A DNA stretch of 63,375 nt, filler included, from Craspedostauros australis (lineage: Eukaryota), in assembly GCA_030167865.1 (NCBI GenBank). It is 5 parts of 5 records of this genome, joined end to end, with 100 filler letters (N's around TTAATTAATTAA, not from the genome) between each part and the next. Parts side by side here need not be neighbours in the genome. Positions count along the whole stretch, not along the records: positions 1 to 29,992 come from JALAGF010005837.1; 4 more parts are not named here. The stretch is one strand, 5' to 3'. The notes under the pieces were generated by a model. It saw only the letters and a list, made by a program, of their open reading frames with translations, had not been told where the DNA came from and ran no database searches. Position numbers and translations under genes: made by a program. Below are positions 3,745 through 52,694 of this stretch, in pieces (positions within the stretch are counted from its first letter, which is position 1; each line of letters starts with the position of its first letter).

Positions 3745-6700
3745 TTATGACATATCAGTCAAGACAGACAGATCGTCATCTGGTCCCTCTGTCGAGTTGT
3801 TGCGACTGTCGGCGCTGCTCCTATCTCCCAAAGGAGACTTGCCCGAGCTTTCAATCGAAACCATGCTGGCAACGGTGTGGGCCAATGTGTTGACCGGAGT
3901 GCTCGCGGACATCAAATCGTAACTCACACTTGATTGATAACCAGGTTGTTGCGATCGCATTTGATCACCAAATGTGATATTCTTGGCTTGGGCCACGATG
4001 CCGCTCTTCCTCTTGGTGGCGCGTACTAGTTCCTGGTTGATGAATTCTCCGCGGAGTTGAAGCAGTATTTTCGTTTTAGCAATTGAGCCCCAGGCCTCGT
4101 AAAATCCCATTGCCTTCGTGAAGTAGTTGTTGATCAGGCGATGGCGCTGCTCCTGCCTGATGCCATCGACTGCCAAGAAGTGCTCGCCAGCCAGCTCGCA
4201 TGCGAAACCTGCTTCATGTAAGCGATGTCCCTCTTCAGCTCTTGCGATGGCAGTGTTGTAGTACGACTCAGCCACGGCAAAGCATGCCCCACCAACCTTG
4301 ATGGCCTTCATTTCTGCACGCAGAATGAGATATCGATGGAGTGCGTTGTCTCCTCTTGTGTTGCAGATTCGTTTGAGCTGCTGTTTCTGCTGCCGTAGCG
4401 TCACGAGGTATCTTCGCTTCTTGCTTTGTCGGTATCGGTTCGATGCCATCAGACCGACCATGGTCACCAAGAAAGTGAGATGATTGTAGCCTTGGTCTTC
4501 GAATCCATCTTTGACTATGGTTTGATACAACACCTCTGCGTACTCGAATTTTCTGAAGTACACGGCTATGTGCAAGCGAACCCAATAGGCTGCATTTCGG
4601 TGGTACGGATCTTTCGTTTTGTACTTGTCGATGTCCATGATGCGATCCCATTCCAGTTCTCTTGTTCCTCGCATGTAGCAATACGCACTAGTGTGCTCAG
4701 AAATCATGTGCGTATGGGCATCAATCTTGAAGGCCTTGATTTGTTGGAAAAGGTCGTTCGTGGCGTGTATCAGGGCTGGAAGTGGATATCCTTCGAGGTA
4801 TGCGTGCAGCAAGCTTGCATTCCATGCCAGAAAGCCAACTTCGAAGTCTCCGACTGACATGGCGGCGGTGTAGGCATGCTGATAGTCATGTGCTATCTGG
4901 GCTGGCGACTTGAAGTAGGACTCAATATACATTGCGCCGCTGAAGTAGATCCATCCCTCCAGCCTTTTGTAGCTCTCGACTGCATGGAGAATCTTCTTTG
5001 CAAGTGTCGCATATCTGCGGGCGCCTGCCGCATCGCCGAGGACCACATGAAGCATCCCGAATGCGTTCATTGCGGACGCAGAGTCTTCACAGATTCCATC
5101 TCGTCTGGTGATGCGTACCATCAGCAATATCGCCAATACTCCCGACAAAGGATCCTGGCACAAAGATCCACGAATGATCACTTGTCGTAAGAAGTTCATC
5201 GATAGAAGCGTCCGGTGACCGTCTGTCACGGGGTTTCTGTGGAAGAATTTCTCGTCGTCGGTCTTTCGAAAGTATGCTCGCGCAGCAACTAATTCTCGTA
5301 CGATGCGGAAGGCGTATCCACGCTTGGGATATTCACCGCACAACTGGGCCCCACGTTGGCTCAGCTGCAAGCTGCTCTGATGCTTGTCTTCCTTTGCCAA
5401 CGCGTTCGCCATCACCGCGTAGGTCGGGAGCTTGTCGTCCAGTGATCGTGCGTGCTCCAGCAGGTCGTCTCCCACGGAGTAACCTAGATCAAAATGATTC
5501 AGCGAGAGCTCAATGTCGCACCGGGCGCGGAGTAGCCGCAGCGTCAGATCGTAGTGGTCCTGCCATGGATCACCCCGCAGCTTCCGAAGCGATGTGTTCG
5601 CCAACTGGAGGTACGTCGCGGCGGGAACTAGCGCCGACAAATGTAGAGCATGCTCACCGACCATGAGGTTTCGTTGTGTCGATAATAGATGATCCTTGCT
5701 CGGGGTGCAATTGAGATGGTCGGCCGCGATGAAGATCAGGCCGCTGTCATCACTGACTACGTTTCCATCGGATGACTCGTTCGCCAAGCCACCGTCGCTC
5801 TCTCTTGCATCGTCCAGCGTGCCCTTGGATGAATCATAGTCTGTGCATACATTCCATAGGCATTGCCCAATGCGCAGCCGAAGCATCGTGCGCACCTCCC
5901 CGAATGGAACCAGATCATGAGCTGCCTGCTGGATGCGATCGTGGCTGAAACGGTAACTTGTGCCTCCGATGGAGTTGGCGAGCAGACCTTCGAGGACGGC
6001 CTGCTCCAGCCATTCTACAAGTGGCGTGCTTGGATCGTTGTTGTGACCGGTGCTGTCGTTGTTGTTGCAGTCGCTACTAGAGATTGCACTTCCACCGAGG
6101 ATATCATCGTTCGTGGGATTGTGTTGCAGTTCATAGTCCCACACAACCTGCAACAGCTCCAACTCAAATGAGGATCGTATGTACGATGCCAGCACAAGTG
6201 CCTTTTGCAACTGGGTGGGCAAGCACCGCAGCTTCGAGGAGATGAGTTGGATGATGTGGCTGGATCCGCCAAGGCCACTGAGCTCCGTTGTAGAGGTGCC
6301 GCTGTTGATGCCACCTTGGACATAGGAAGAGGCACTAGCGGACGCACAAGCGGCGGTGTTCATCTCCCACTGGAAGGTGATACGGCTGTACACCAACACC
6401 TGACTTCGCTCCATGTCTTCCAGAAGCTGAACTGCGTGGAAGATGTTCCCATCCGTTTGTCTGAAAAGCAGATTGCTCGCCTCATCCACAACGTCGTCGT
6501 CTTGTTGGAAAAGTTCTGATACCCAGTCACGCAGCTGTTGCTGAGTGAAGTTGTTGAGATGGATGTCGGTGTATGGAGGTATGACTGTTGTTTGCTTGCC
6601 ATTGCTGCTGTTGGTGTTGTTGCCAGTGTTGCTAGCGGGGTTGTTCAGGTTGATATCCGCCAAGAGCATGCGGAACGGCACGTCGACTCCCAATTCCACC

Positions 6701-8088
6701 ACCTCATCCGGCGAATGAGGATTGACTTCTTGTCGGATGGTCCCGATCCATAGAAAGTGGGAGCGATGCATGGCTGTTGACATCAGCTCCATGCACTCTT
6801 GGGATGCCCATTGCAAGTCATCCAGCACCATCACGACCGGGCAATCCTTCGATGACACGGCACTCAAGAACTGCGCAAAGGTGTATTGAAATCGATTCCA
6901 CGATGTGTCTGTGGATGAGACCTTGGGTGCATTGGATTCTGCATTGGGGGTAGAGTTGATCTGATGCAAGCTTGAGGAGGCGAGGGACGTGTTGCCACTG
7001 TCGCCATCATCAAAAAGGATGGACAATGCCGGTACAAAGGTGAGGAGGAGACCTTTTTGCTCCGATGTGAGTAGGCTGGACTTAATGTTGGATCGCAGCT
7101 GCTGGACGAGAAGATTAGGTGCGATGCTCTGTGTCTCCTGCTGACTTGTCGTATCTTCGGTGATCTTGGCACCGACGTGGTCGAGACCACTTGGTTCCAC
7201 CGATGACAATGTCAATGGTGGCGACGACGGCATTGAATGCTTCGCTGTTGATGCTGCAGGCTTTCTGTGAGAAGCCAGTTGTTTGCACCAGTTCGAGATC
7301 GCCTGGGTGATGGCAGAGAAAGGATCACCCTGTTGATGCTCTTCGAACTTCCCCTTCAGGATGTGCACATCGCGGTGCGCGATGGCCTTTCTGCTCGTTT
7401 TCTTCCTATTCCTCTTCCTGTTCTCCTTTTGCAAATCGTCGCGCAATTGATTGCAAAAGGTATCCACCAGCTTGGACTTTCCTGTCCCGCTGATGCCCCA
7501 GACGAACGCTGCCGGCAGCAAGACTTCCCCGACAAATGGAGATGTTGGTGTTGGTGTGGATGCAGGCGCCGCCGACCCAACAGATGTCGTCGGTTGCGAT
7601 GCGGTCTTGTTTGGTCTGCCCCTTCTGCTCGCTTCGCCAGCTGCTACCATTTGGTCAAAAGCGGTACGCAGCAGCTTGAGCTCTTCGTCACGACCGAATA
7701 CTTCGGTTCCACCGCCGTTGAAGAGCGTGTGCGGGACATCGGTCTCGAGCTCGACTTCGTTGTATCCATCATCGTAGAAGTCATTGCCAGAGGTGAGGAC
7801 GGTTTCATGAAGCACCGATGAGGAGATCTTGGGGGGTGCGACGATGTTCTTGTTGCTGAGGTCATTCGGGTTATCCAACGGGCTCCTCTTGCTACCTTTT
7901 GTCGTGGCATTCGAGGCCCTGGTGGCGGATTCTTCAGGTGATGTTGTTGTTGTTTCTTCCGTCACTGGCGGCAAAGCTGTTGTTTGTCTGAGCGATCCGG
8001 CGAGCGAAGGCTGTGTGGTTGCATACTTCTTCCTGTCTACCGCTTCGGCCCTGTTGGTGTTCATACGAGTGTTGGGATAGGGCGCCAT
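3745..8088 (-). CDS. STAND-class (AAA_16/COG3899-like) P-loop ATPase, about 1447 aa, paralog of the upstream gene
   Basis: First ATG at 8088. VFGRDEEL pre-P-loop motif, Walker A GISGTGKS, GKFEE motif, Walker B VMVLDDLQW, TDGNIF, YRFSHDRIQQAA, HEAGFACELAG and YEAWG. No kinase or His-kinase domain recognisable. Confidence 0.88.
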   Translation of the reverse strand: MAPYPNTRMNTNRAEAVDRKKYATTQPSLAGSLRQTTALPPVTEETTTTSPEESATRASNATTKGSKRSPLDNPNDLSNKNIVAPPKISSSVLHETVLTSGNDFYDDGYNEVELETDVPHTLFNGGGTEVFGRDEELKLLRTAFDQMVAAGEASRRGRPNKTASQPTTSVGSAAPASTPTPTSPFVGEVLLPAAFVWGISGTGKSKLVDTFCNQLRDDLQKENRKRNRKKTSRKAIAHRDVHILKGKFEEHQQGDPFSAITQAISNWCKQLASHRKPAASTAKHSMPSSPPLTLSSVEPSGLDHVGAKITEDTTSQQETQSIAPNLLVQQLRSNIKSSLLTSEQKGLLLTFVPALSILFDDGDSGNTSLASSSLHQINSTPNAESNAPKVSSTDTSWNRFQYTFAQFLSAVSSKDCPVVMVLDDLQWASQECMELMSTAMHRSHFLWIGTIRQEVNPHSPDEVVELGVDVPFRMLLADINLNNPASNTGNNTNSSNGKQTTVIPPYTDIHLNNFTQQQLRDWVSELFQQDDDVVDEASNLLFRQTDGNIFHAVQLLEDMERSQVLVYSRITFQWEMNTAACASASASSYVQGGINSGTSTTELSGLGGSSHIIQLISSKLRCLPTQLQKALVLASYIRSSFELELLQVVWDYELQHNPTNDDILGGSAISSSDCNNNDSTGHNNDPSTPLVEWLEQAVLEGLLANSIGGTSYRFSHDRIQQAAHDLVPFGEVRTMLRLRIGQCLWNVCTDYDSSKGTLDDARESDGGLANESSDGNVVSDDSGLIFIAADHLNCTPSKDHLLSTQRNLMVGEHALHLSALVPAATYLQLANTSLRKLRGDPWQDHYDLTLRLLRARCDIELSLNHFDLGYSVGDDLLEHARSLDDKLPTYAVMANALAKEDKHQSSLQLSQRGAQLCGEYPKRGYAFRIVRELVAARAYFRKTDDEKFFHRNPVTDGHRTLLSMNFLRQVIIRGSLCQDPLSGVLAILLMVRITRRDGICEDSASAMNAFGMLHVVLGDAAGARRYATLAKKILHAVESYKRLEGWIYFSGAMYIESYFKSPAQIAHDYQHAYTAAMSVGDFEVGFLAWNASLLHAYLEGYPLPALIHATNDLFQQIKAFKIDAHTHMISEHTSAYCYMRGTRELEWDRIMDIDKYKTKDPYHRNAAYWVRLHIAVYFRKFEYAEVLYQTIVKDGFEDQGYNHLTFLVTMVGLMASNRYRQSKKRRYLVTLRQQKQQLKRICNTRGDNALHRYLILRAEMKAIKVGGACFAVAESYYNTAIARAEEGHRLHEAGFACELAGEHFLAVDGIRQEQRHRLINNYFTKAMGFYEAWGSIAKTKILLQLRGEFINQELVRATKRKSGIVAQAKNITFGDQMRSQQPGYQSSVSYDLMSASTPVNTLAHTVASMVSIESSGKSPLGDRSSADSRNNSTEGPDDDLSVLTDMS

Positions 8089-16900: not shown

Positions 16901-17020
16901 CGCGACACAAACGCAAATACTCCGTTGCACATGCAAGCACAATTGGATGCTGCGGAGCAATACCTTCCGTTGGATGGTCATAAATTGAACCACTCGCAAC
17001 AGACGCATCAACCGTCCATC

Positions 17021-20000
17021 ATGGCAAACACATCACATCATATCCGTACTACGAGTGGTGCTGCCACCAGCAGGGCGAGGCGAGCAACCCTGAGGCCATC
17101 ACCATGGACGATGATCCTCCTGTGGATGAGCATCATGAGCATCGCAATCGACCTCGGCATGCCATCATCAACGACCACAGTGTTCTGCCATGCATCCACT
17201 CCATCCGCGGCGATGAATGCAGCAGCAGATGAAGCCACGATGCATCACGCAGAGACGCCCAACATCCGAGGCGGTTTGCGTGCGCCACTGGACATCATCG
17301 ACACGCACTTGCTGGATTCGCGACTGTGCCGTCACACGACCGCAGAACATTGCGCGATGGTCGATCATCGATTCACGCTGCAGGCGCAGAACAATCAGCG
17401 ATGGATTCAGCACCAAATGGAGCAGCTGCACGAACGGCAACGGCAACGCAAGCTGCAGCGAAATCCGGATAACGGTGGTCCTGGCAATGGTGATGGCAAC
17501 GGTCCAGGCAATGGCAACGGGCCGGGCAACGGAAACGGTGACAGCGACGAAGACGGCGACGAAGGCAACGATGACGTTGTGGAGCTTAACGTTCTCGTGC
17601 TGCTCGTGAGATGGAAGGACCATGAGGGCCGAACCGTCATCAACCGCGACGTCATCGACGAGCTGTTCAATGCACCTGTGGGTGAAAAGGACACCAGCAG
17701 CTTCCCAACAGGCAGCATCCAGGGATACTTCATGGAGAATTCATACAACAAGTTCAAGGTCAAGGCCACCGTCTTGGATTGGGAAACCACGCAGAATGAC
17801 GAAGCCTACTACGCCAACGGACAGTCGGGATTGCTGCAGCCGTTCGCCACAGGCCCGGATGTCTCCGAGGCCATCCTGCCGATCCTCGATCAGATGGAGG
17901 CCGACGATTTCGATTTCACCATCTTCGATGCCGACAGCGACGGCGCCATCGACGCGACCGTCCTGATGCATTCGGGATACTCGGCCGAACGCGGCGGCGC
18001 CGATTGCGACACGGGCAACGAATATCTCGATCGCATCGAATCCAGCACGCGCGCCTTCGATCCCAACCTGTGGCTGTCGGTCAAGAGCCAGGTTAGCCTG
18101 GGTCCCTTCGTCGTCAGCTCTGCCTTCCGCGGTACGTGCGGCGACAAGATCGCGCGGCTCGGCGTCACGGCGCATGAATTGACGCGCGCGATGGGCATTC
18201 CCGATCTGCTCGACAATCAAGGATACCCGCCGGGCACAGTCATCGACGGCGTAGAAAGCCGATCGGTGGGCGGTATCAGCGGATACGATATCATGGCCAA
18301 TCCAGGCGGACAGTCGGGGCGGCAAGCGTGAGTGTTTGTGTTGTGTACCGTTGTTGTTATTTGGTTGCATTGAATTGAATTGAATTGAATTCCATTGGGG
18401 CTTGTTTTTCATTTCATGCAACAACCAACAGGCAGACTGACACAACTCTAGCATGCCAACCTCACCATCTCCGTTTCGCTCCATCTCCAACTCCGTAGTT
18501 ACCCAGGTTTCATGTCGGCATGGACCAAGCTCAAGCTGGGATTTATCCAACCCATCGAGATTGACGACGACGGGACATTCACCGCGCGGGCAGCTGAGAC
18601 GCATCCAGACATCTACATGATCTCCAAGCCCTACACGGACGCAGAGTACCTGCTCATTGAGAATCGACAGCCGCTGTCGTTCGACAACTTCATGTACGCA
18701 CCTGGTGGCATCCTGATCTATCACATTGATGACAACGCCAACGCAGCGCTGGGGAAGTTCAAGGAGGGCAACCTCCACCGCGGGTATCCCGGATTGGAGG
18801 GATGGCCCGGCAACTTCGCGCACTACCAAGTGGCGTTGCTGCAGGCGGACGGCGCGTACGAGCAGGAGAAGGGACACAACAACGGCCACGCAGCCGATTT
18901 TTGGACGCCAGGCAAGTCCTTGGCGCCCAACCCAGTGCAGGAGGAGGTGGCATCGGCAGCCGGTGTGTATCCCAACACGGACGGGTACAGCGCGCTGTCC
19001 GGTATCGTCAGCACCGGTCTCACGATCGAGAACTTCCAATCGACGTCGAATGGGGTGTGGAGCTTTGACGTGATCGGGCTGATGGACACCGATGCACCCA
19101 CACATCAACCCACAACTTCACCAACGAGTGGACCAACGGGTGGACCGACGCAACTCCCAACGCAAGCACCGACGCTATCGCCCACGGAAACACCCACTGT
19201 GACGCCAACGCAAAATCCAACGGCAGCAATTGTCACCGAGTCTCCGTCAGTTACGCCAACCACCGATTCACCGTCTATATTACCATCAGGAGTGCCGACG
19301 AAAGATCCCCAATCGCAAAGCCCAACGGTAGCTCCAACGGAGGCCACGGCCATGCCAACATCAGCGCCGACAGCACCAGTTGGCAGCACAGATGCTCCCA
19401 CGAGCATGTCGGCGACCGATGCACCGACCACAGCTCCATCGACAGTTCCATCGCAGGGTCCAACGCCGGCGCTCTCCGACGTGCCGAGTCATTCACCGAC
19501 GATCGATGCGGCAACGTCATCGCCAACAACGGTCTCGGAGGAAGCTGGGGGCTCGAATGCACCAAGTGCGATTCCCACGGACGCGTCACAGTCGCCAACC
19601 ACGCAGCCGACAATTCCGAACATCTTCGATCACGGAGATGGTTCTAAGAACAGCACATCGAGTTCGTACCCATCGGGCGCACCGACGTCGATGGAGGAGA
19701 TGTCAGCAGAGCCGACTCCAATGGCATCGGAACGGGACCTGAACATCACCTTTCCTCCGAACGGTATGGATAACACAACCAGCTCCGCCCCAACGATGAT
19801 GCCCAACATTTTCACTCCAGGCACGTCCAGTCCAACCGGGGGCGAGAACGTTACGACAGGTTGCTGCTCTCTGAACCATCGCGACTGCGACGCCATCAGC
19901 TGCGGCACAACAGAACAGGAATGCGAGGCATGCTCCGATCCATTCTCCGTCTGGTTGGCCGACGGCGAGCTGGCCTCCGATTTCTGCATTGCCCGATTCG

Positions 20001-20434: not shown

Positions 20435-21329
20435 GAGTGGATGTGAACACGACGATGACGATGACGATGACGATGATCAGAATGCTGATCGAGAAACATC
20501 AGCAAAGCACAGGGCAACGCTGGACTAACAGCGGTTGCTGTCTCGTCTCATCGCAACGAAGGGGAGAGTGAAGGAAGGTCGAGCACAAGCAAGTTACAAA
20601 TGTATTATATTATAGTAGTATGTAAGACGAAGGAATGAGGGAAGTAGTTCCTCATGGTAGCATGGTATCTGTCCATTGCTCTCTCTCTCTCTCTCTCTGG
20701 CATAGTGTACATGCCAAGCACTTGCGAAGCAAGGCATTGCAGGTCTCGATTGCGAGTAATTCAGTCTGTTCTGTTCTATCCTTGTAACTCAGTCTACTCT
20801 ACAACCCTTTATGGTTTCCAGAATCAAAGGAAACCGAAAAAGAGACGAAAACGAAGCAGAAAAAACAATCCGTGTTACCGGACTGACCGAATCTCTGATG
20901 AGTATATTCAGTTAGTCTGTTGAGTCGCTAGGATTACCCTATCTCGAACGTTGATTGGTGGATAGGGTTGCACCAATCAGCTGGTTTTGCGGTTTCCCAA
21001 ACGAGACAAGGCACGAAGATCTTGGAGGGCAACAGATGTCCGACCATGACGACACTAGTTTGCTGCCGTTGATTTTGCGAAATCCAAGAGCAACCAAACA
21101 AGACACGCGTCTTCCGTTTGCAACGCATCGCGTCGCCTAACACAACCTCACCATCGGCACATCTTCATCCTTCACTTCATTGATACGTTTGGGCTCATTG
21201 GATTGCTGCCTATTCGACAGAACAGCGACGATTGCAATTGAATAGTCGCATACGTTGACATATCAGTGTTTTACCAACAACCTAGTCGTAACAATACTCC
21301 AACAGAAGACCCATTGAGCCGTAATCACC

Positions 21330-23590
21330 ATGAAGACCATCAGCTTGGCCGCATCCGCGGTGGTTCTTGCCAGCTGCATGACGAGCGCATCGGTGGCATT
21401 TGCATTCCAATCGGCAGCACCTTCGCTCTCCAACACCCATGCTTTCAGGTGAGTCCATCGTTCGGTTCGATTGTGTTGCCTTGTGGCTACAAGTACTTGC
21501 ATCGTTGTGTTCTAGTGGCAGACCATCGTCCGTCCAACAAAGATGAGGTGTTGTGCAGTAGCATGCCCATGTCAGACTTCTTGAGAACCTCCCATTCCCT
21601 CATCTTTTTCACCATTATCATCACTACAATTGCACCCATGATTGCAACTATGATTGAAACTATTCTAATATGATTACTAATCTTTCGAAAACTCTGCCAT
21701 GCCACGTTCATGCATTGCACTACATTATATAATATAATATTATACAACAGCAGACAGAATGAAGCATTCTCTGGAGCACGCATGTTCTCTGCGCCAACGA
21801 TGCCAACGATGCCAACGATGCCAACCACCGCGCTGAACCTCTCCATCGCGAAGAACCTTCCCTTCCTTGCCTCCAACAATGATGACGGCGACAACAAGAA
21901 GACCACCATCAACAAGAAGAACGTCGCCAAATCGCTGATCAAGTCCACCGCCATGGCGCTCGTCACGTTGACCTTCTTCACGTCGACACCCGCCTTCGCC
22001 GCCGCCGCCAAGCAAGCCGAGGAGACCGTCGAACATTTGCACACGGGACAGAAGATCGCCAACTTCTTCATGAACTTCGGACTGCCGAAGTGGGCCGTGC
22101 TGGCCACCATCTCCGCCATGCCGGTCGTGGAGCTGCGCGGCGCCATCCCCGTGGGTATCTGGCTGGGCATGCCCATCATGAAGGTCCTTCCCATCTGCGT
22201 CCTGGGCAACATGGCGCCCATCATCCCGCTGCTCTTCCTGTTGCGCAATGACAGACTCAAGCAGCTCATGTCGCCCATCCTCAAGCGCGCCGAGAAGAAG
22301 GCGTCGGGTTTGGGCGTCGGATCGGTCGAGAAGCAGTGGGCCTCGTTGGCGGCCTTCGTCGGTATTCCGCTGCCAGGAACAGGCGCGTGGACGGGTGCCA
22401 TGGGCGCCTTCCTGCTGGGCATGCCCACCGCGCTGGCCATCTCCAGTATCTTGACTGGCGTCATCTCGGCTGGTTGCATCATGTCCGCCATCACGTTGGC
22501 GGGACGCAAGGGTGGTATCGCGGCGCTTGCGGTACTGCTGGCCGTCACCGGTAAGGAACTTCTGTCCGGCAGCAGCGAAAGTGAGGAGGTTGCTTCCACT
22601 GATGCCGACGATAGTGTTGCGGCCGAAGCGGCACCAGCTCCAGTTGCGGCGGCAGCGCCGAAGCAGGATTTCCTGGAGGCCGAGCCGTACTATGACCAGT
22701 CCGCCGTCCCGGTCAACGTCTACAAGAACAAGTCGCCATTCACTGGAAAGGTCGTCTCGACGAAGCGCATCGTCGGACCGAAGGCCACCGGGGAGACCTG
22801 CCACATCGTCATCGATCACAACGGCGACTTCCCGTACTGGGAGGGACAGTCCTGGGGTGTCATCCCGCCTGGAACCCGCGAGAAGGACGGCAAGCCACAT
22901 AACGTGCGTCTCTACTCCATCGCCTCCACCCGTTACGGTGACGACATGACCGGAAAGACGGGATCCCTGTGCGTGCGCCGTGCCACGTACTGGTGCCCCG
23001 AGCTCCAGGCCGACGATCCAGCTAAGAAGGGCATCTGCTCCAACTTCCTGTGCGACACGCAGCCAGGTGACGAGGTCAAGATGACGGGACCAGCCGGAAA
23101 GGTCATGCTGATGCCGGAGCAGGACCCAACCACCGATTACATCATGGTCGCCACCGGAACCGGAATCGCACCATACCGCGGATTCATCCGCCGTCTCTTC
23201 ACCGAGGACACGCCAGCCGGCAACGCCTACAAGGGCGAGGCCTGGTTGTTCCTGGGGGTTGCCAACAGCGACGCCCTCCTTTACGATGACGAGTGGCAGG
23301 AGGCGAAGAAGAACTATCCCAACAACTTTCGATTGGATTACGCTTTGTCGCGTGAGCAGACGAACAAGTCCGGCGGCAAGATGTACATCCAGGACAAGGT
23401 GGAGGAGTACGCCGACGAGATCTTCACCAAGCTGGAGAACGGTGCCCACATTTACTTTTGCGGATTGAAGGGCATGATGCCCGGCATCCAGGACATGCTG
23501 AAGGGAGTCGCCGAGAAGAAGGGACTCGAGTACACGGACTGGCTCAAGGGCCTCAAGGCCAAGAAGCAATGGCATGTCGAGGTGTACTAA
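21330..23590 (+). CDS. petH: Plastid-targeted fusion of a putative small multi-drug export family membrane domain (PF06695/COG2426) and ferredoxin-NADP+ reductase; exons 21330-21448 and 21751-23590 (about 652 aa)
   Basis: Exon 1 [27 protein letters not shown] is a signal peptide with an ASAFAP-like cleavage motif. Intron GTGAGT(21449)...AACAG(21750) is in phase. PF06695 signatures [16 protein letters not shown] and [17 protein letters not shown] motifs [39 protein letters not shown] and terminal WHVEVY. Confidence 0.92.
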
Positions 23591-23944
23591 AGTATTCTGA
23601 ATGCATTGGATTGCATCGCATTGCAAGAAGCAAAGAAAATGAGAACCAGCTATTTCGTAAAATAGAAATTGCATGCCCTAACTTGTCAATAACAATCGTC
23701 TACTCGCACGTGTGGACAAGGAAGGCGATGAATGTTGGCTGTGAAACAGAGGACATATCAAGTGATTGTGTTGTATGTGTGGTATGTAGTTGTACTCGTA
23801 GCTTGGGATTGTCTATTTGTATTTGTATGGCATTTACATAGAACATGAGCGGACCACGATAGTAGCATTCGTGGTCATGCGTGCACATGACTTCCACAAG
23901 TATGTACATCAACACAACACTCCCACATGAGAGAACACGCCACA

Positions 23945-25096
23945 TCACTTCAACTGCCGCGGCCGCAGCTGCTCCGCCGTCTTGCCGCGCAGATAATCAT
24001 TCCATTGATCCCAATGCTGCCGCCTCGTGTAATCCAACGGCACATGCCCCCTGACATCGGCCACGAATAGCAGATCGGGACAGGCCTCGATGAGGACGTC
24101 CATGAGCTCGAAGTTGGGCGCGCACGTCCAGCACGCATCATGCAACGGCGTGCGGCCAAAGTCGTCCTTGATCTGCATCGGCACCTCCTGCAGCAGGTAG
24201 GTCGCGACGTCGACGAATCCCTTGCGACATGCCAGATGCAGCAGGCTCTCACCGAAGCGGTTGGAGCATTTGAGAGGTCGCTTGCGCACCGTGTGGTACT
24301 CGCGCAGTCGGTCCATATCGCGCGTGCGGACGATGGCCAGGATCTCCGTGTCGTAGGCGTCGATCTCGGCTTGGGTGGGGTCGTGGAAGAAGTCCGGGAT
24401 GGTGGTGCAGGAATGCGTCTTGGGTTTGTCGGGCGTGAGGAGCTGCATGAGGACCTGCTGCGGTTTCGTGGCTGGTTTGATTCGTTTGGAGTCGAGGAGC
24501 CTGGCGGGTAGTTCGGAGACGATTTGCAGCACCTTCTTTCGTTTGCGGGGGGTGTTGGCGATCGTTGGTGCAGTTGGAGTGGCCGTAGTTGGAGCAGCTG
24601 TGGTTGAGACTGCTGCAGCACTCACTGCAGGCATGGATGGTGCATTGACTGGGATGCTTTCCGTGGAAGAGTACGCAACGACAGATGGTGGCATGGCAAG
24701 TGCAGCCGTCGCAGGCAACAGCTGGTGATGCTGTGGTTGCAGCATACCAACGTGAGCTGCTGACGTGCTGGTTGTCATGGCAGTGGGCACCGCTGAGGTC
24801 GACTGCGGCTTCGCCATCATCTGTTGCTGCGCCATGTGGAACTGCTGCTGTGCCTGCTGGTATGCATGCGAGAGCTGTATCGTTCCGTTTGGCATCATGT
24901 AGTACATTGGAGCCGCATTTGTGGAAGCAGACGCTTGGATTGCTGCATGCGGAACTGCTGTAGGTGGTTGAGACAACTTGGCAGGAGCCAATGGTGCTGG
25001 TGCGATGCAGATGTTCCTGCTTGCAGCTGGTTGCAACGGCATCAGCAGTGCATGCTGCGGAGTTGATGCTGATTGTTGCTGCGTTCTGACGTCCAT
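23945..25096 (-). CDS. Ankyrin-repeat protein with Q/A/P-rich N-terminus (383 aa)
   Basis: Ankyrin motifs NRFGESLLHLACRKG, DDFGRTPLHDACW and DVRGHVPLDY; basic PRKRKK putative NLS. Confidence 0.85.
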   Translation of the reverse strand: MDVRTQQQSASTPQHALLMPLQPAASRNICIAPAPLAPAKLSQPPTAVPHAAIQASASTNAAPMYYMMPNGTIQLSHAYQQAQQQFHMAQQQMMAKPQSTSAVPTAMTTSTSAAHVGMLQPQHHQLLPATAALAMPPSVVAYSSTESIPVNAPSMPAVSAAAVSTTAAPTTATPTAPTIANTPRKRKKVLQIVSELPARLLDSKRIKPATKPQQVLMQLLTPDKPKTHSCTTIPDFFHDPTQAEIDAYDTEILAIVRTRDMDRLREYHTVRKRPLKCSNRFGESLLHLACRKGFVDVATYLLQEVPMQIKDDFGRTPLHDACWTCAPNFELMDVLIEACPDLLFVADVRGHVPLDYTRRQHWDQWNDYLRGKTAEQLRPRQLK

Positions 25097-32810: not shown

Positions 32811-34733
32811 ATGTGGCCAAAAAAGAATAAAAAGCTCGTGAGTCTCGGCGGTGGTGGAGCTGTTCTCGAGGAGATCGAAGGGGAGGAAGAGGATGACAGC
32901 GATGATGAGGAGGATATCCAACAACAGATCAGCGATGCGAAGAAGAAGGAGGCCAAAGTAAGAGTGGACCTCGACGAAAGCATGAAGGCAGCCCAACAGC
33001 TGATGGAGAAAAGTAAGTCAGACACAACCAACAATCTACCTACTGAACTACTTTCTCAATGCAACACTGAGATCAGCAATTTTGGTGAACAACTCGACAA
33101 TGCCACCAAATCCCGCGAGGAACTTGCCACAAAGTTGCATCGATGCCGACTGAAGCGTCGCATGAGAGAATCTAGTATCAAGAAGGTGCTGGACAAACTC
33201 GACGCTGTGGAGAACAAAATTGATGTCATGTTCATCATGGACGCTTCTAGTTCAATGAGGTCATACATCCGCAGTGCCAAGAAGACTATCCGCAAGATTG
33301 TCGAGAAGATCAAGGCCGATGGAAAGGGGAAGGATCTACGGTTGGGGTTCGTGGCCTACCGAGATATTTACAATGGATCTGATCGATACCAAGTCCTTGA
33401 TTTCGTGGACGACGTCAGTGTCTTCGAACGCTTCCTGGAGGGAGTCAAGTCCATTCGCAACAACGACGAGCCAGAAGACATGGCGGTTGGCATCCAAAAG
33501 GCCAATGAGCTCTCCTGGATGCACCCCACCAGAGTTGCCTTCATCGTCGGTGATGAAGCATGTCATGGAACCGAATTCCACGATCACGGCGAGTCTGGCG
33601 ACAACTACCCGACCGGCACTCCAGGCATCAACATCGTCTCGGAGCTGTCCAAACTCAGGACCAATCCATGGGGTGGAACCATGAACGTCTTCTTTGGTCG
33701 CATCACCAAGAAAACGGACAAGATGATTGAGCGGTTTGCGTCCGTCCACAACATTGATCTCAAGGTTGTGGACTTCTCTTCTCCCGAAATGGTTGAGAAC
33801 GTCGTGGTCAAGAGCGCCCGCCACTCCGTCTTCAACTCGGTGTCGTTGATCGACTCTCAGATCAAGTTAGTGGAGTACGAAGCAGACAGAGGGAAGATGA
33901 AGAAGGCCAAGATGAAACCATACACAATCTCCAAAGATTTTCCAACATACTTTGGATGGAAAGCAACGGTGCCCGTCAACGTGTACTGCAACACCCGCAA
34001 CATCTCCGTCCAGTCTTTGCGAACGCCTCTCTCGGTCAACAAGTTGGCCCAGACCTACATTTCTCGGTTCCGTTGCATGAAACGTGTCAACCTCAAGTTC
34101 CGGCTCCAACTGGCGAGATCACCGTTTGCTGAGGGGTCATGCCGCATTGCATTCCATGCAAAGTTGGCGCGTCACAATTCCGAGCTCAACCTCGACAAGA
34201 GCGCCATGGTGCTCAAGACCAACAAGCACCATGGACCAGGAATCAATGATAGACAACGATACTTCCAACAGATGGAGATATCATCCATCGTGTGCTTCCT
34301 TGCCAACGAATACAACAATTCAGTCTTCCGTCCTTCGCACTGTGCCATGATCAAGGTTTTGCAAGCGTGCGTGGTGGAGGTCAGCGACAGAAATGAAGCA
34401 GACGGAAACGGTTTCTACTGCGGCGAAGACGTGCTGCCAACCACCGGAACGCCATTCACCAAGTACTGCAGCAACACGGGAGCCTGGAATCCCGACCACA
34501 TCGATGAGTCGCTCCTTCGCTTCGTGGAGTTCTCGTATGTCTTCTCCAAGGAGTACTTGATTGTGGCGGATCTTCAAGGTGTCAAGGCCAATGGCAAGTA
34601 CTACTTGACCGACCCTGCGATCTTGTGCACCGACATGAGACGCTTCGGCTGCACCAACATGTGTACACCGGGAATCATACGTCACTTGGCATCAGTTCGA
34701 GACAAGCTCAAGATGTTCACGACGAAGGAGTGA
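32811..34733 (+). CDS. Coiled-coil + vWA + alpha-kinase (eEF2K/MHCK family; VwkA-like architecture), 640 aa
   Basis: vWA IDVMFIMDASSSM (MIDAS), LGFVAYRD and DEPED; alpha-kinase PFAEGSCRIAF, VLK, KYCSNTG, IVADLQGV, YLTDPAI and FGCTNM. Confidence 0.9.
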   Translation: MWPKKNKKLVSLGGGGAVLEEIEGEEEDDSDDEEDIQQQISDAKKKEAKVRVDLDESMKAAQQLMEKSKSDTTNNLPTELLSQCNTEISNFGEQLDNATKSREELATKLHRCRLKRRMRESSIKKVLDKLDAVENKIDVMFIMDASSSMRSYIRSAKKTIRKIVEKIKADGKGKDLRLGFVAYRDIYNGSDRYQVLDFVDDVSVFERFLEGVKSIRNNDEPEDMAVGIQKANELSWMHPTRVAFIVGDEACHGTEFHDHGESGDNYPTGTPGINIVSELSKLRTNPWGGTMNVFFGRITKKTDKMIERFASVHNIDLKVVDFSSPEMVENVVVKSARHSVFNSVSLIDSQIKLVEYEADRGKMKKAKMKPYTISKDFPTYFGWKATVPVNVYCNTRNISVQSLRTPLSVNKLAQTYISRFRCMKRVNLKFRLQLARSPFAEGSCRIAFHAKLARHNSELNLDKSAMVLKTNKHHGPGINDRQRYFQQMEISSIVCFLANEYNNSVFRPSHCAMIKVLQACVVEVSDRNEADGNGFYCGEDVLPTTGTPFTKYCSNTGAWNPDHIDESLLRFVEFSYVFSKEYLIVADLQGVKANGKYYLTDPAILCTDMRRFGCTNMCTPGIIRHLASVRDKLKMFTTKE

Positions 34734-46611: not shown

Positions 46612-48258
46612 CTACTCCTCCAACATCTCAGGCAAAACGCTGCAGGTGTAGTACTTCTTGGCCAGACTGAATCCATTGAAGGTGCACGCCGAGCTGCTAG
46701 TGTAGGCTCCCAGGNNNNNNNNNNNNNNNNNNNNNNNNNNNNNNNNNNNNNNNNNNNNNNNNNNNNNNNNNNNNNNNNNNNNNNNNNNNNNNNNNNNNNN
46801 NNNNNNNNNNNNNNNNNNNNNNNNNNNNNNNNNNNNNNNNNNNNNNNNNNNNNNNNNCACGTGGAGGGTGTCGTCCCAAATTAGATTGTTGAATGGACCA
46901 TACACGCCTTCGTTGAGGTAGTAGGCGAAGTCGTCGCGGGCGGCGACAGCCGTCTCCTCTGAGCCCTCGGCGTTGTCTTTGTTGGCAAGGTTGCTGCGGA
47001 CGCTGGTGACAGAAACAACGACAGCAGAGCAGGCAGACACCAGGTATCGTCCTGGCTCGCCCATGACTCGGACGCTGTCCTCAGGGAAGATCTCGTCGAT
47101 GAGGGGCGAGATCTGATCGGCCATGCCGGGGAACGACATGAGGGACATCGCCCTCTCAAGCGCCTCTTCATCTTCCTCCAATTCCTTGGGATGATCCTCA
47201 TTGGGGACCTTGGAGAGGTTGGCCGGATTCCAAGGGGAGATCGTGTCGCCAGGGAAGCCACCGCCGATGTCCAAGAGGTTCATATCGAAGCCGAACTCGT
47301 TCTTGCCCATATCGAAGATTTCGCGGGAATCGTTCAGCGCCGTCTTGTAAGTGGATGCAGTGCGGCAGTTGGAACCAACGTGGAAGGCAACACCAATGAC
47401 GGGCAAGCCGCATTCCTTGGCGGTGCTCAGCAGATCCCTCCAGTGCGCGCGCGTCGCACCAAACTTGGTGGAGAGTGGGTATTCCGAGCCGGAGTCATCC
47501 GTGACGATGCGCAGCACAAGCTCGATGTCCTTGGATATCTCCGCGCACTTCCGGATCTCGTCAGCATTGTCGAATGTGACCCTGCATACATTCTTTTTGA
47601 CGGCGGCCTGGATGTGCGAGCGCTGCTTGCAGGGGTTGGCGAAGATGATGTCGGGGCGCTGCGGCAGATCCGCGGAGCATTCTTCCACGAGAGTAATCTC
47701 GCCCAGCGACGCGCAGTCGAAACCAGCCCCAAGTCTTGCCAGCATCTTGACGATGACGGGATCTGGGTTGGACTTCACAGCAAAGTACGGCGCAACGCGG
47801 GGTAAGCGATGCTTCCATTGCATGTACTGCTGCACAATGCTGCCCAGATCGCACACGTAGAATGCCTCGTCGGTGATGTCGGACCCGTTCGTCTTGGCAA
47901 TGGCCTGCTCCCTGCGGAGGAAATGGCGAGTGGCGTGGCGCAGACCCTTGCCGATGGCCGAGCCTTCCATGAACACCTCGTTGTCCTGGAGAATGTCAGC
48001 AATCACACTGTGTTCGGGTGAGGCCAGCGAAGGGCGGGCGCTGTCTGTCTGCGTTTGCATTGTTTCTTTGTTGTCTCTCACTGAGTCATAATCGGTACTT
48101 GTCGGCATGATGCTCATCGACATGCCCAGTTGTTGGCGAGGCGTCATTGACGGTCGATGGATCGACACTTGCATTCGTCCTGTCCTGATACGTGTGGGCG
48201 GTGTCAGTCCACAACGGAGTGATCTGCGTGTGACGACACGTACTGTGGCAGAAATCAT
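46612..48258 (-). CDS. ODC: Ornithine decarboxylase-like fold-type III PLP decarboxylase (N gap at 46715-46857)
   Basis: PYFAVKSNP (PLP Lys), FDCAS, FANPCK, TFDN, KFGA, VAFHVGS, LDIGGGF, EPGRY, NEGVYG, GAYT and TFNGF. The GPTCD region falls in the gap, so substrate specificity is not fully established. Confidence 0.85.
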   Translation of the reverse strand: MISATVRVVTRRSLRCGLTPPTRIRTGRMQVSIHRPSMTPRQQLGMSMSIMPTSTDYDSVRDNKETMQTQTDSARPSLASPEHSVIADILQDNEVFMEGSAIGKGLRHATRHFLRREQAIAKTNGSDITDEAFYVCDLGSIVQQYMQWKHRLPRVAPYFAVKSNPDPVIVKMLARLGAGFDCASLGEITLVEECSADLPQRPDIIFANPCKQRSHIQAAVKKNVCRVTFDNADEIRKCAEISKDIELVLRIVTDDSGSEYPLSTKFGATRAHWRDLLSTAKECGLPVIGVAFHVGSNCRTASTYKTALNDSREIFDMGKNEFGFDMNLLDIGGGFPGDTISPWNPANLSKVPNEDHPKELEEDEEALERAMSLMSFPGMADQISPLIDEIFPEDSVRVMGEPGRYLVSACSAVVVSVTSVRSNLANKDNAEGSEETAVAARDDFAYYLNEGVYGPFNNLIWDDTLHVXXXXXXXXXXXXXXXXXXXXXXXXXXXXXXXXXXXXXXXXXXXXXXXXLGAYTSSSACTFNGFSLAKKYYTCSVLPEMLEE

Positions 48259-51467: not shown

Positions 51468-52694
51468 ATGCCAGGCGTTACGAAGCAACAGGTCCTTGAT
51501 GCTGCCGAGGCAGGCGATTTGTCGGTGTTGAAAGAATGGGAGACGCAGAATGCAGGAGGCGGCATGAACGTCCGGGACGCGCATGGCTCCACTCTCCTCC
51601 ATCTAGCATGTCTTGGCGGCCATCTGGAGTGTGCCAAGTACCTTATTCAATCATGCGGGGCCGACGCCAGCTCCAAAGCCAACAGTGGTCTCACTTCCCT
51701 TCATATGGCATGCACCAACGGGTATCCGGAGTGTGTCAAGTACCTTGTCGAATCATGCAACGTCGACGCCGGCTGCAAAATCGACGATGGTCTCACTCCC
51801 CTTCATATGGCATGCCAATTCGGCCGTCTTGAGTGTGCCAAGTACCTCATTGAATCATCCAAGGTTGATATCAACTGCAAAGCCAACGATTATACCACTC
51901 CCCTTCATGCGGCATGCCTTGGCGGCCACCTGGAGTGTATCAAATACCTCATTGAATCAGCAAAGGCTGATGTCAACTGCAGACCAAAAGACAATTCCAC
52001 TCATCTTCATCAGGTATGCCTCAATGGCCACCTGGATTGTGTCAAGTACCTCATCGAATCATGCGAGGTCGACGTCAGCTCCAAAGCCAACGCGAATGCC
52101 ACTCCCCTTCATATGGCATGCCTCAACGGGCATCTGGAGTGTGTCAAGTACCTCATCGAATCATGGAACGTCGACGTCAGCTGCAAAATAGACGATGGTC
52201 TCACTCCCCTCCATGTGGCATGCCAAGCCGGGCACTTGGAGTGTGTCACGTACTTCATTGAATCATGTAAGATCGACGTAGGCTCCAAAACCGACGATGA
52301 TCTTAATCTCCTTCATCTGGCATGCTTCAATGGCCATCTGGAGTGTGCCAAGTATCTCATTCAATCATGCAAGGTCGACGTCAGTTCCAAAGCCATCGGT
52401 GGTCTCACTTCCCTTCATATGGCATGCCTTACCGCCCGTCTGGAATGTGTCAAGTATCTCATTGAAGCAGGCAAGGCCGACGTTGGCTGCAAAGCCGACG
52501 ATGGTTCCACTCCCCTTCATCTAGCATGTCAATTCGCGCATCTGAAGTGCATCAAGTATCTTATTGAATCAAGCAATGCTGACACCACCATAAAAAACAA
52601 CGACAACAAGACACCCCTCGATATGATCCCAGCTACGCACAAGATGAGCGTGATGACATCAATCATGAAGCTTCTCAATCTCCGCAACTCATAA
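51468..52694 (+). CDS. Ankyrin-repeat protein with 10 homogeneous 34-aa repeats plus caps (408 aa)
   Basis: Consensus xGxTPLHxACxxGHLECVKYLIESCxVDVxxK repeated at a 102-bp period. Confidence 0.93.
   Translation: MPGVTKQQVLDAAEAGDLSVLKEWETQNAGGGMNVRDAHGSTLLHLACLGGHLECAKYLIQSCGADASSKANSGLTSLHMACTNGYPECVKYLVESCNVDAGCKIDDGLTPLHMACQFGRLECAKYLIESSKVDINCKANDYTTPLHAACLGGHLECIKYLIESAKADVNCRPKDNSTHLHQVCLNGHLDCVKYLIESCEVDVSSKANANATPLHMACLNGHLECVKYLIESWNVDVSCKIDDGLTPLHVACQAGHLECVTYFIESCKIDVGSKTDDDLNLLHLACFNGHLECAKYLIQSCKVDVSSKAIGGLTSLHMACLTARLECVKYLIEAGKADVGCKADDGSTPLHLACQFAHLKCIKYLIESSNADTTIKNNDNKTPLDMIPATHKMSVMTSIMKLLNLRNS

What the first reader, a model, noticed from the sequence alone, without database searches (positions are those of the whole stretch)
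21330..23590. Plastid FNR fused in frame to a PF06695/COG2426 membrane domain: a covalently membrane-tethered ferredoxin-NADP+ reductase
Seen: one uninterrupted exon encodes a multi-pass membrane domain (about 22090-22560), an acidic Ala/Pro linker with no second signal peptide, and a complete FNR ending WHVEVY, behind a single bipartite plastid presequence. Known: plant-type FNR is soluble and is tethered via TROL/Tic62 in plants or an N-terminal CpcD domain in cyanobacteria; PF06695 proteins have no established function. The [14 protein letters not shown] insert resembles root-type/green-algal FNRs. Inference: a Rosetta-stone link between this uncharacterised family and plastid redox, either a built-in membrane anchor or a redox-coupled transporter. 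I cannot tell whether this fusion has been reported before.
Basis: partly seen in the sequence, partly recalled or inferred. Interest (0 to 1): 0.82.

Follow-up and report, generated by a model that had tools for sequence, protein, structure and literature searches.

The report
Diatom FNR fused to membrane domain
This diatom gene makes the enzyme that produces photosynthetic NADPH as one chain with a multi-pass membrane domain of unknown function, a fusion shared by diatoms and their sister algae that I did not find described in print.

Summary
One ORF (21710-23590, +) carries a complete PF06695 membrane domain and a complete plant-type FNR. The start at 21330 lies in a 119-nt first exon that must be spliced to this ORF.

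The fusion is not an artefact. All 120 best homologues carry both Pfam domains, including MMETSP transcripts and genome models from many diatom genera. Triparma strigata (Parmales) is also fused. A brown alga, a raphidophyte, a dictyochophyte, a dinoflagellate and a land plant have the membrane protein alone.

The membrane core is 77-79% identical among 14 diatoms, against 87% for FNR and 37-50% for the flanking hydrophobic segments. It keeps all family-invariant residues, so it is more than a greasy anchor. A signal-type hydrophobic segment ending A-x-A precedes it, and an extra helix follows it. That inferred topology puts FNR on the side of the basic loop, read as stroma.

My best reading is a membrane-integral plastid FNR. 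Which membrane, whether the chain is later cleaved, and what the domain does are all untested. Ten literature searches found no description. No RNA run or genome was available.

The parts
21330..21448 (+). Exon 1. It holds the ER-type signal peptide (about 23 residues, SVA|F cleavage motif) and the start of the transit-peptide-like region. It ends at the donor CAG|GTGAGT.
   Evidence: Read-through hits a stop at once. The splice is inferred; no RNA was available.
21449..21750 (+). Inferred intron, 302 nt. An alternative tandem acceptor 3 nt downstream would end it at 21753.
   Evidence: the GT donor at 21449 leaves phase 2. From the sequence, the acceptors at 21750 and 21753 restore the frame of the main ORF. 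The last in-frame stop upstream of the ORF is at 21671.
21751..21916 (+). Rest of the transit-peptide-like region. It is poorly conserved and contains about four copies of a 9-nt repeat that encodes PTMPTMPTM.
   Evidence: Mean pairwise identity over ORF residues 1-69 is 0.21 among 14 diatoms.
21917..22000 (+). Signal-type segment: a basic n-region, a hydrophobic helix (residues 79-93), Pro94 and A95-F96-A97. I read it as a cleavable thylakoid-type signal or a signal anchor.
   Evidence: AF2 predicts a helix at model residues 2-21. Cleavage itself is inferred.
22025..22501 (+). PF06695 core, residues 106-264. Order of elements: conserved EHLHxGQK, amphipathic helix, helical hairpin 1, TM1, basic loop with amphipathic helix, hairpin 2 ([10 protein letters not shown]), TM2.
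   Evidence: Pfam. AF2 domain model with pLDDT 92.9 and pTM 0.86. Mean pairwise identity 77-79%. Family-invariant E141, R143, P147, G166, N167 and P220 are kept.
22505..22567 (+). Extra C-terminal hydrophobic helix (residues 266-286). It is predicted to carry the chain back across the membrane.
   Evidence: separate helix 166-186 in the domain model. One search modelled it as continuous with TM2, so this is uncertain. The stand-alone ochrophyte orthologues also have it.
22568..22660 (+). Variable acidic Ala/Pro linker.
   Evidence: the measured stretch is 38 residues here, with a median of 13 and a range of 9-51 across 32 fused proteins. pLDDT is below 50.
22661..22702 (+). Conserved junction segment KQDFLEA(E/D)PY(Y/W)DQS. 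It lies ahead of the part that aligns to solved FNRs.
   Evidence: Mean pairwise identity 0.83. The same segment is present in the Parmales-type fused protein P0277. The PDB alignment starts only after it.
22703..23590 (+). FNR catalytic module (FAD and NADP(H) domains), ending WHVEVY, plus the stop codon.
   Evidence: Mean pairwise identity 0.87.

Best explanation
This is a nuclear diatom gene for a plastid ferredoxin-NADP+ reductase that is made as one polypeptide with a polytopic PF06695 membrane module. It is an orthologous, ancient fusion shared by diatoms and Parmales/bolidophytes. An FNR was appended to the C-terminal tail of a plastid membrane protein that other plastid lineages keep as a separate protein. 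Proposed working, all inferred: the ER signal and the transit-like region bring the precursor into the plastid. The signal-type segment ending A-x-A inserts it with the start of the core on the trans (lumenal) side. The core returns to that side, and the extra last helix crosses back. The FNR and the Lys/Arg-rich loop then face the stroma, held close to the membrane surface, where the FNR exchanges electrons between ferredoxin and NADP(H). This would be a built-in substitute for the Tic62/TROL, CpcD or FNR-N tethers of other lineages. The membrane module is conserved far more than an anchor needs, so it most likely keeps its own ancestral, unknown activity or a specific docking role. I favour the thylakoid membrane, at roughly 55:45 over the inner envelope.
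For: A single open frame holds both complete domains. All 120 listed best homologues carry PF00175 and PF06695, among them MMETSP transcript ORFs and genome models from Chaetoceros, Nitzschia, Seminavis, Ditylum, Fistulifera, Epithemia, Corethron, Leptocylindrus and Pseudo-nitzschia. Triparma strigata is fused too. Stand-alone orthologues of 272-411 aa occur in Choristocarpus, Fibrocapsa, Octactis, Symbiodinium and Acer. In a tree of the membrane domain the fused diatoms form one clade. Its sister group holds the Parmales-type fused protein P0277 together with P0142, a 257-aa unnamed protein of unknown completeness. Among the best 150 of 2225 representatives, only 1 is longer than 450 aa. The FNR part aligns over its full length to solved FNRs. 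Core conservation is 77-79%, against 37-50% for the flanking helices, and the family-invariant residues are kept. A-x-A follows a hydrophobic segment in 31 of 32 fused proteins by script. The loop after TM1 carries 8 Lys/Arg and 3 Asp/Glu (my count from the sequence). The tether is short, with a median of 13 residues.
Against: There is no transcript, protein or localisation data for this gene: no RNA run was listed and no genome is held. The topology rests on the last hydrophobic segment being a true membrane span. The full-length AF2 model drew it as one continuous helix with TM2, while the domain model broke it. By the stricter hydrophobicity test only 23 of 32 fused proteins pass. The FNR is closest to the solved FNRs that I recall as the root (heterotrophic) type. 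The Arabidopsis orthologue At2g02590 appears in a list of plastid transporters (one passage of PMC2246286). I recall that list as drawn from envelope proteins; the passage itself does not say so. Both points fit an envelope location equally well. A Bacillariophyta-rich Atlas cluster of FNR without PF06695 (a lead only) suggests this may not be the only plastid FNR in diatoms.
Confidence: 0.7

Rival explanations
1. Envelope-bound, heterotrophic-direction FNR. The fusion sits in the plastid inner envelope and uses NADPH to keep ferredoxin reduced for envelope enzymes, rather than serving photosynthetic NADP+ reduction at the thylakoid.
For: The best PDB matches score about 460 bits, against about 295 bits for chains labelled leaf isozyme; that the best matches are root FNR is recalled. 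At2g02590 is listed among plastid transporters (one passage of PMC2246286); that the list derives from envelope proteins is recalled, not in the passage. A possible second, non-fused diatom FNR cluster exists (lead only).
Against: The conserved hydrophobic segment with A-x-A resembles a thylakoid-transfer signal. Similarity to root-type FNR may simply reflect ancestry. No localisation data exist either way.
Confidence: 0.2
2. Redox-coupled membrane activity. The PF06695 module is an active transporter or lipid-scramblase-like unit whose function is driven or gated by the attached FNR, and anchoring is secondary.
For: The core is conserved almost as strongly as FNR and keeps the invariant hairpin-tip residues shared with stand-alone forms in plants, dinoflagellates and prokaryotes. 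Papers relate PF06695 to DedA/TMEM41B/VMP1 proteins (passages). Weak fold resemblance to hairpin-containing ion transporters: ArsB Z 5.7, VcINDY Z 5.0, TRAP Z 5.0 and 4.7. These values are below the tool's own noise level for helical proteins.
Against: No cofactor or redox motif is evident in the membrane part. Prokaryotic neighbours give no redox link: the commonest neighbour clusters are RecD2-like helicase in 17 of 80 loci and UvrA in 14 of 80. My profile tests did not recover the DedA link.
Confidence: 0.15
3. Polyprotein precursor. The fusion is translated as one chain but is cleaved in the linker after import, giving a separate membrane protein and an ordinary soluble FNR.
For: The linker is variable in length (9-51 residues) and sequence and is predicted to be disordered. 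The two halves are separate proteins in related algae. The junction motif KQDFLEAxPYW is conserved and could be a processing site.
Against: Most species have only 9-15 linker residues, with no shared cleavage motif in the linker itself. Persistence of the fusion across all sampled diatom lineages and Parmales is easier to explain if linkage matters.
Confidence: 0.1
4. Assembly or gene-model artefact that joins two neighbouring genes.
For: None was found. Some public gene calls do split or truncate orthologues: P0128 and P0272 at an intron, P0125 at a contig end.
Against: The frame is uninterrupted here, and the same architecture appears in all 120 best hits from independent assemblies and transcriptomes.
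Confidence: 0.01

Closest known systems
Plant-type ferredoxin-NADP+ reductase, closest to the solved chains 3lo8, 1jb9 and 5h59
   Same: The FAD and NADP(H) domains align over their full length with almost no gaps, including the YWCPE...[10 protein letters not shown] segment and the C-terminal VEVY. PF00175 scores above its cut-off.
   Different: Solved and textbook FNRs are soluble proteins. This one follows about 330 residues of targeting sequence and polytopic membrane domain, and it has a conserved 14-residue junction segment that is absent from the solved chains.
Cyanobacterial CpcD-FNR (PetH with an N-terminal phycobilisome-linker domain)
   Same: A localisation module is covalently fused to the N-terminus of FNR through a flexible linker. 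NCBIfam models for PetH match the FNR part.
   Different: There is no CpcD domain (no PF01383). The module here is an integral membrane domain, not a soluble linker domain. The scores lie below the equivalog cut-offs (372 against 600).
Eustigmatophyte FNR-N, an N-terminal extension of FNR that docks on the stromal face of PSI (bioRxiv 10.64898/2026.08.10.743057; abstract and passages read)
   Same: It is a lineage-specific N-terminal tethering device on FNR within the ochrophytes.
   Different: FNR-N is a 43-residue peptide bound to PsaB, PsaD and PsaL, and that paper says it occurs only in eustigmatophytes. The diatom module is a multi-pass membrane domain. The passages I read do not mention a diatom FNR membrane domain.
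Tic62 and TROL tethers of vascular plants
   Same: They hold FNR at a plastid membrane.
   Different: Their binding is non-covalent and goes through a Pro-rich repeat. For Tic62 that repeat is reported only in vascular plants, and the Tic62 subfamily was not found in Thalassiosira (PMC1847441; abstract and passages read). What I say about TROL is recalled.
PF06695 (Sm_multidrug_ex) within the DedA superfamily (DedA, TMEM41B, VMP1)
   Same: The Pfam match covers the whole profile. The AF2 model shows the published pattern twice: amphipathic helix, helical hairpin, TM helix (compare the passages).
   Different: No member of PF06695 has a known function. Here the domain has an added N-terminal signal-type segment, an extra C-terminal helix and an enzyme fused to it. 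I could not reproduce the DedA link statistically.

Membership tests
Plant-type FNR (ferredoxin-NADP+ reductase) | Full-length similarity to solved FNRs across both the FAD-binding and the NADP(H)-binding domains | tested here: met
   residues 332-626 align to 3lo8 residues 17-311 of 311, at 462 bits and E about 1e-137.
Plant-type FNR (ferredoxin-NADP+ reductase) | PF00175 NAD-binding domain above Pfam's gathering score | tested here: met
   92.7 bits against a cut-off of 22.
Plant-type FNR (ferredoxin-NADP+ reductase) | C-terminal aromatic residue as the last residue (its role of stacking on the flavin is recalled) | tested here: met
   The sequence ends WHVEVY, aligned to the last residues of 3lo8. 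The Tyr is invariant in 14 of 14 diatom sequences.
Plant-type FNR (ferredoxin-NADP+ reductase) | NCBIfam equivalog cut-off for cyanobacterial PetH | tested here: not met
   372.1 bits against a cut-off of 600. The model is built for cyanobacterial PetH, so this argues only against that equivalog, not against FNR.
Plant-type FNR (ferredoxin-NADP+ reductase) | Ferredoxin:NADP+ oxidoreductase activity | not testable with these tools
   This needs an enzyme assay.
PF06695 (Sm_multidrug_ex) | HMM match above the gathering score over the whole profile | tested here: met
   103.7 bits against a cut-off of 30.7, profile positions 1-121 of 121.
PF06695 (Sm_multidrug_ex) | Retention of residues that are invariant across fused and stand-alone members | tested here: met
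   118 sequences: E141, R143, P147, G166, N167 and P220 are invariant, and the [10 protein letters not shown] block is nearly invariant.
DedA superfamily | Two repeats of amphipathic helix, re-entrant helical hairpin and TM helix | tested here: met
   DSSP: helices 12-22, 27-36/41-51, 56-77, then 88-101, 106-118/126-135, 140-164. Only the order of elements was checked; I did not inspect the 3D geometry. The pattern is the one described in the passages of PMC7818093.
DedA superfamily | Significant profile similarity to PF09335/DedA proteins | tested here: inconclusive
   No PF09335 hit at E up to 10. hhalign of A3 against E. coli DedA alone, and against a shallow alignment of 14 sequences, gave probabilities of 0.08% and 0.07%. 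The papers report HHpred probabilities of 98-99%.
DedA superfamily | A solved structure of a relative | tested here: inconclusive
   No PDB sequence match with E below 0.3. No Foldseek match with E of 0.001 or lower. Best VIA Z is 6.0.
CpcD-FNR | N-terminal CpcD (PF01383) domain | tested here: not met
   One search lists only PF06695 and PF00175.
Tic62/TROL-type tethering | Non-covalent binding through the Ser/Pro-rich FNR-binding repeat | not tested
   The Tic62 repeat is reported only in vascular plants (PMC1847441). I did not search the window's genome for it, since no genome is held.

The most novel reading that the evidence does not exclude
PF06695 proteins are the ancestral, so far unrecognised membrane partner of FNR (or of a ferredoxin/NADPH-dependent membrane process) in plastids generally. 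Diatoms and Parmales merely made covalent an interaction that also operates between the stand-alone protein (At2g02590 in Arabidopsis) and FNR in plants and other algae. This would give the first function to a whole branch of the DedA superfamily.
Probability: 0.15. Interest if true: 0.85.

Novelty: new variant of a known kind. Interest (0 to 1): 0.62.

Why it matters
How FNR is held at the membrane is thought to influence how electrons are shared between linear and cyclic flow, and each lineage studied so far uses a different tether. Diatoms are major marine primary producers. If their FNR is an integral membrane protein, models of their acceptor-side electron transport, their proteomic fractionation and their PSI or cytochrome b6f preparations need to take that into account. 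The fusion is also the only functional clue I found for PF06695, a family with plastid members in plants and algae and wide spread in prokaryotes. It makes two questions directly testable in transformable diatoms: whether the membrane domain matters, and for what.

Tried and rejected
RNA evidence: no RNA holder was listed for 21250-23750. No whole genome is held, so I could not look for a second FNR or for tether proteins in this organism.

Complex prediction of the FNR part against the membrane part returned no verdict (score 0.00). It is not used either way.

Fold searches of the membrane-domain model gave nothing clear. Foldseek's best E was 0.34, for NHA2. VIA-align's best Z was 6.0, and the hairpin-type transporters ArsB, VcINDY and TRAP scored Z 4.7-5.7, within the tool's stated noise for helical proteins. 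A PDB profile search gave nothing below E 0.3.

The DedA link could not be shown with my own profiles. The DedA homologues I fetched were 79-94% identical to E. coli DedA, too shallow to make a useful profile.

Gene neighbourhoods were examined for the 80 best prokaryotic PF06695 loci, kept from at least 599 pattern matches. Most are Clostridia, with WOR-3 and Thermoplasmata also present, and none is titled as a cyanobacterium. The commonest neighbour clusters were RecD2-like helicase (17 of 80 loci), UvrA (14 of 80) and an aminotransferase (10 of 80). I saw no redox or photosynthesis link and take this as lineage synteny.

A third cluster look-up named only one 'bacterium'. The search of earlier findings returned nothing.

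My first splice model (exon 1 ending at 21449) was wrong by one base and was replaced. The two 'solo' proteins inside the diatom clade look like contig-end fragments. P0125 ends in KKQNF, which is the start of the junction motif. P0123 comes from a 1022-nt contig.

Whether diatoms also have a non-fused plastid FNR could not be settled. The Atlas shows a Bacillariophyta-rich cluster with PF00175 only (lead only). A T. oceanica proteome paper lists two petH loci without giving their architecture (PMC5570362, passages; supplements not seen).

For most papers I saw only the listing, and no title or abstract start describes a diatom FNR with a membrane domain. This is no proof that it is not in print, because subscription journals are largely missing from the library.
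Full report
**What is in the sequence.** On the + strand an ORF of 626 codons runs from 21710 to 23590 without a stop.
- Pfam finds a complete PF06695 'Sm_multidrug_ex' domain at residues 141-257 (E 1.3e-29, 103.7 bits, cut-off 30.7, whole profile).
- Pfam also finds the NAD-binding domain PF00175 at residues 479-594.
- NCBIfam's PetH models match residues 307-626 at 3e-111, below their equivalog cut-offs.
- Residues 332-626 align almost without gaps to solved plant-type FNRs. The best are 3lo8, 1jb9 and 5h59, at about 460 bits.
- Chains labelled leaf isozyme and the cyanobacterial FNRs score about 280-305 bits.
That 3lo8 and 1jb9 are maize root FNR is my recollection.
- Nothing in the PDB matches residues 1-300 by sequence.
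- The two long antisense ORFs have no Pfam match.

**Gene model.**
- The ATG at 21330 opens [24 protein letters not shown]..., a signal peptide followed by Phe.
- That reading frame cannot reach the main ORF directly. It meets a stop straight after the canonical donor CAG|GTGAGT at 21448/21449.
- Two adjacent acceptors (CAG|CAG, giving exon starts 21751 or 21754) restore the frame. The last in-frame stop upstream of the ORF is at 21671.
- The predicted protein therefore has about 651-652 residues.
- My first model was one base off, and one search corrected it.
- The splice is inferred. No RNA run was listed and no genome is held.

**Is the fusion real?** Yes, as far as comparison can show.
- All 120 best homologues listed, out of 4620 hits, carry both Pfam domains at 71-84% identity.
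- They include genome models of Chaetoceros tenuissimus, Nitzschia inconspicua (two), Seminavis robusta, Fistulifera solaris and Epithemia.
- They also include transcriptome ORFs from Ditylum, Leptocylindrus, Pseudo-nitzschia, Dactyliosolen and Corethron.
- Transcript-derived ORFs with both domains show that orthologues are expressed as a single mRNA.
- No listed protein is identical to the window's, so this species' own model is not among the rows listed.

**Range of the fusion.**
- I searched 1.84 billion cluster representatives with the membrane part alone (2225 hits).
- Among the best 150, only one protein longer than 450 aa appears, the diatom cluster representative P0042.
- The others are mostly 200-330 aa, with an N-terminal extension.
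- Named stand-alone members are Choristocarpus tenellus (brown alga, 282 aa), Fibrocapsa japonica (raphidophyte, 302 aa), Octactis speculum (dictyochophyte, 272 aa), Symbiodinium natans (400 aa) and Acer negundo (411 aa). All that I scanned carry PF06695 only.
- One further cluster holds a 590-aa fused protein, P0277. Its closest named relative is a fused protein of Triparma strigata (574 aa, 75% identical).
- In a FastTree of the membrane domain the fused diatom sequences form one clade. Its sister group contains P0277 and P0142 (257 aa, unnamed, completeness unknown). The other ochrophyte stand-alone proteins lie outside. The tree was midpoint-rooted and I did not examine support values. No row was dropped, since all 118 passed the length filter.
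- The simplest reading is a single fusion event in the common ancestor of diatoms and Parmales/bolidophytes. That placement relies on the named rows only.

**Anatomy of the membrane part.**
- AlphaFold2 with an 86-sequence alignment gives a confident model: pLDDT 92.9, pTM 0.86.
- The order of elements is amphipathic helix, helical hairpin, TM helix, basic amphipathic loop, second hairpin (with the turn at PLPGTG), TM helix, and then a further helix.
- This is the pseudo-repeat pattern described for PF06695 and DedA proteins (passages of PMC7818093 and bioRxiv 10.1101/2020.12.18.423352).
- I could not confirm the DedA relationship myself. There was no PF09335 hit, and hhalign gave a probability below 0.1% against a shallow enterobacterial DedA profile.
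- No solved structure resembles the model convincingly.

**Conservation among 14 diatoms.**

| Region | Mean pairwise identity |
|---|---|
| PF06695 core | 77-79% |
| FNR domain | 87% |
| Hydrophobic segment before the core | 37% |
| Last helix | 50% |
| Linker | 39% |

Six residues are invariant across 118 fused and stand-alone sequences, and the [10 protein letters not shown] block is nearly so. A simple anchor would not be held this tightly, so the module probably retains its ancestral role.

**Targeting and topology (inferred).**
- Ahead of the core lies a basic stretch, a hydrophobic helix, Pro, and A-x-A (A95-F96-A97 in ORF numbering).
- By script, 31 of 32 fused proteins have such an A-x-A 3-30 residues before the conserved HxGQK motif. 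Of these, 23 pass a stricter hydrophobicity and charge test. The remaining sequence (P0070) has AHA by eye.
- Stand-alone ochrophyte orthologues show the same layout.
- This looks like a signal-peptidase-type signal, which makes the presequence tripartite, as in lumen-directed proteins. That comparison is recalled, not tested.
- The published DedA-type core starts and ends on one side of the membrane. If so, a cleaved signal puts the start of the core on the trans side.
- The loop after TM1 then lies on the cis side. It carries 8 Lys/Arg against 3 Asp/Glu (my count).
- The extra last helix returns the chain to the cis side, where FNR sits. This is what ferredoxin and NADP+ chemistry in the stroma requires.
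- The weak point is that last helix. The full-length model merged it with TM2, while the domain model separated it.

**Linker and junction.**
- The stretch between the last helix and the conserved junction motif is 38 residues here. Its median is 13 and its range 9-51 in 32 fused proteins, and the longer versions are acidic.
- The acidic Ala/Pro linker is therefore one of the longer versions of a variable tether.
- The following 14 residues (KQDFLEAxPYWDQS) are 83% conserved and are also present in the Parmales-type protein. They lie outside the region covered by solved FNRs. Their role is unexplained.

**Comparison with known systems.**
- Cyanobacteria fuse CpcD to FNR. No CpcD domain is present here.
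- Vascular plants use Tic62 and TROL. The Tic62 FNR-binding repeat is reported only in vascular plants, and that subfamily was not found in Thalassiosira (PMC1847441).
- Eustigmatophytes carry an N-terminal FNR peptide that docks on PSI. A 2026 preprint says this peptide is confined to that class, and in the passages I read it does not mention any diatom membrane domain.
- The diatom solution, covalent fusion to a polytopic domain, is a further variant of the same theme.
- Ten literature searches found no description of it.
- The architecture is visible in public automatic annotation, where these proteins are simply named ferredoxin-NADP reductase.

**Open points.**
- Thylakoid or envelope location is undecided.
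- It is unknown whether the precursor is cleaved in the linker.
- Diatoms may also keep a non-fused FNR. The Atlas shows a Bacillariophyta-rich cluster without PF06695, and a T. oceanica proteome paper lists two petH loci.
- What PF06695 does is unknown. Prokaryotic gene neighbourhoods gave no clue.

**Verdict.** This is a real, ancient and apparently undescribed domain fusion that most likely makes diatom FNR an integral membrane protein. I rate it moderately high in interest, as a new variant of a known kind.

Noticed in passing
window 21791-21827: About four tandem copies of a 9-nt unit encode PTMPTMPTM inside the poorly conserved transit-peptide-like region.
   Followed up: no
window 22031-22054 (ORF residues 108-115): The motif E-H-L-H-x-G-Q-K lies just ahead of the first amphipathic helix. 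It is conserved in the fused proteins, and an HxGQK-type motif was found by script in 27 of 86 stand-alone sequences, including the named ochrophyte ones (P0127, P0129); the Symbiodinium (P0159) and Acer (P0244) rows lacked it under the looser pattern. By the inferred topology it faces the trans (lumenal) side. The paired His and Glu might bind a metal, but this is unexplained.
   Followed up: partly
window 22661-22702: A strongly conserved junction segment, KQDFLEAxPY(W/Y)DQS, sits between the linker and the FNR core. It is also present in the Parmales-type fused protein and is not covered by any solved FNR chain.
   Followed up: partly
window 21740-23674 (-) and 21487-22491 (-): Long antisense ORFs of 644 and 334 aa overlap the gene. 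Neither has a Pfam match, so they are probably a by-product of codon composition.
   Followed up: partly
window 23945-25096 (-), 32811-34733 (+), 46612-48258 (-), 51468-52694 (+), 59243-60421 (+), 3745-8088 (-), 16931-18331 (+): Neighbouring ORFs have Pfam hits: ankyrin repeats; VWA plus alpha-kinase; Orn/Arg decarboxylase; a dense ankyrin-repeat protein; LRR; AAA_16 ATPase; M6-peptidase-like. None has an evident link to the FNR gene.
   Followed up: no
P0128, P0272 and P0277: In a Parmales-like organism, gene callers split the fused gene at an intron inside the FNR domain, giving a 375-aa protein and a 260-aa protein, while another source has the intact 590-aa protein. Fused genes may therefore be under-counted in automatic annotation.
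   Followed up: partly
L002-L081: The closest prokaryotic relatives of the plastid PF06695 domain among the 80 loci kept are mostly anaerobic Clostridia, plus WOR-3, Cloacimonadota and Thermoplasmata. None is titled as a cyanobacterium, so a cyanobacterial origin of the plastid family is not evident from this sample.
   Followed up: partly
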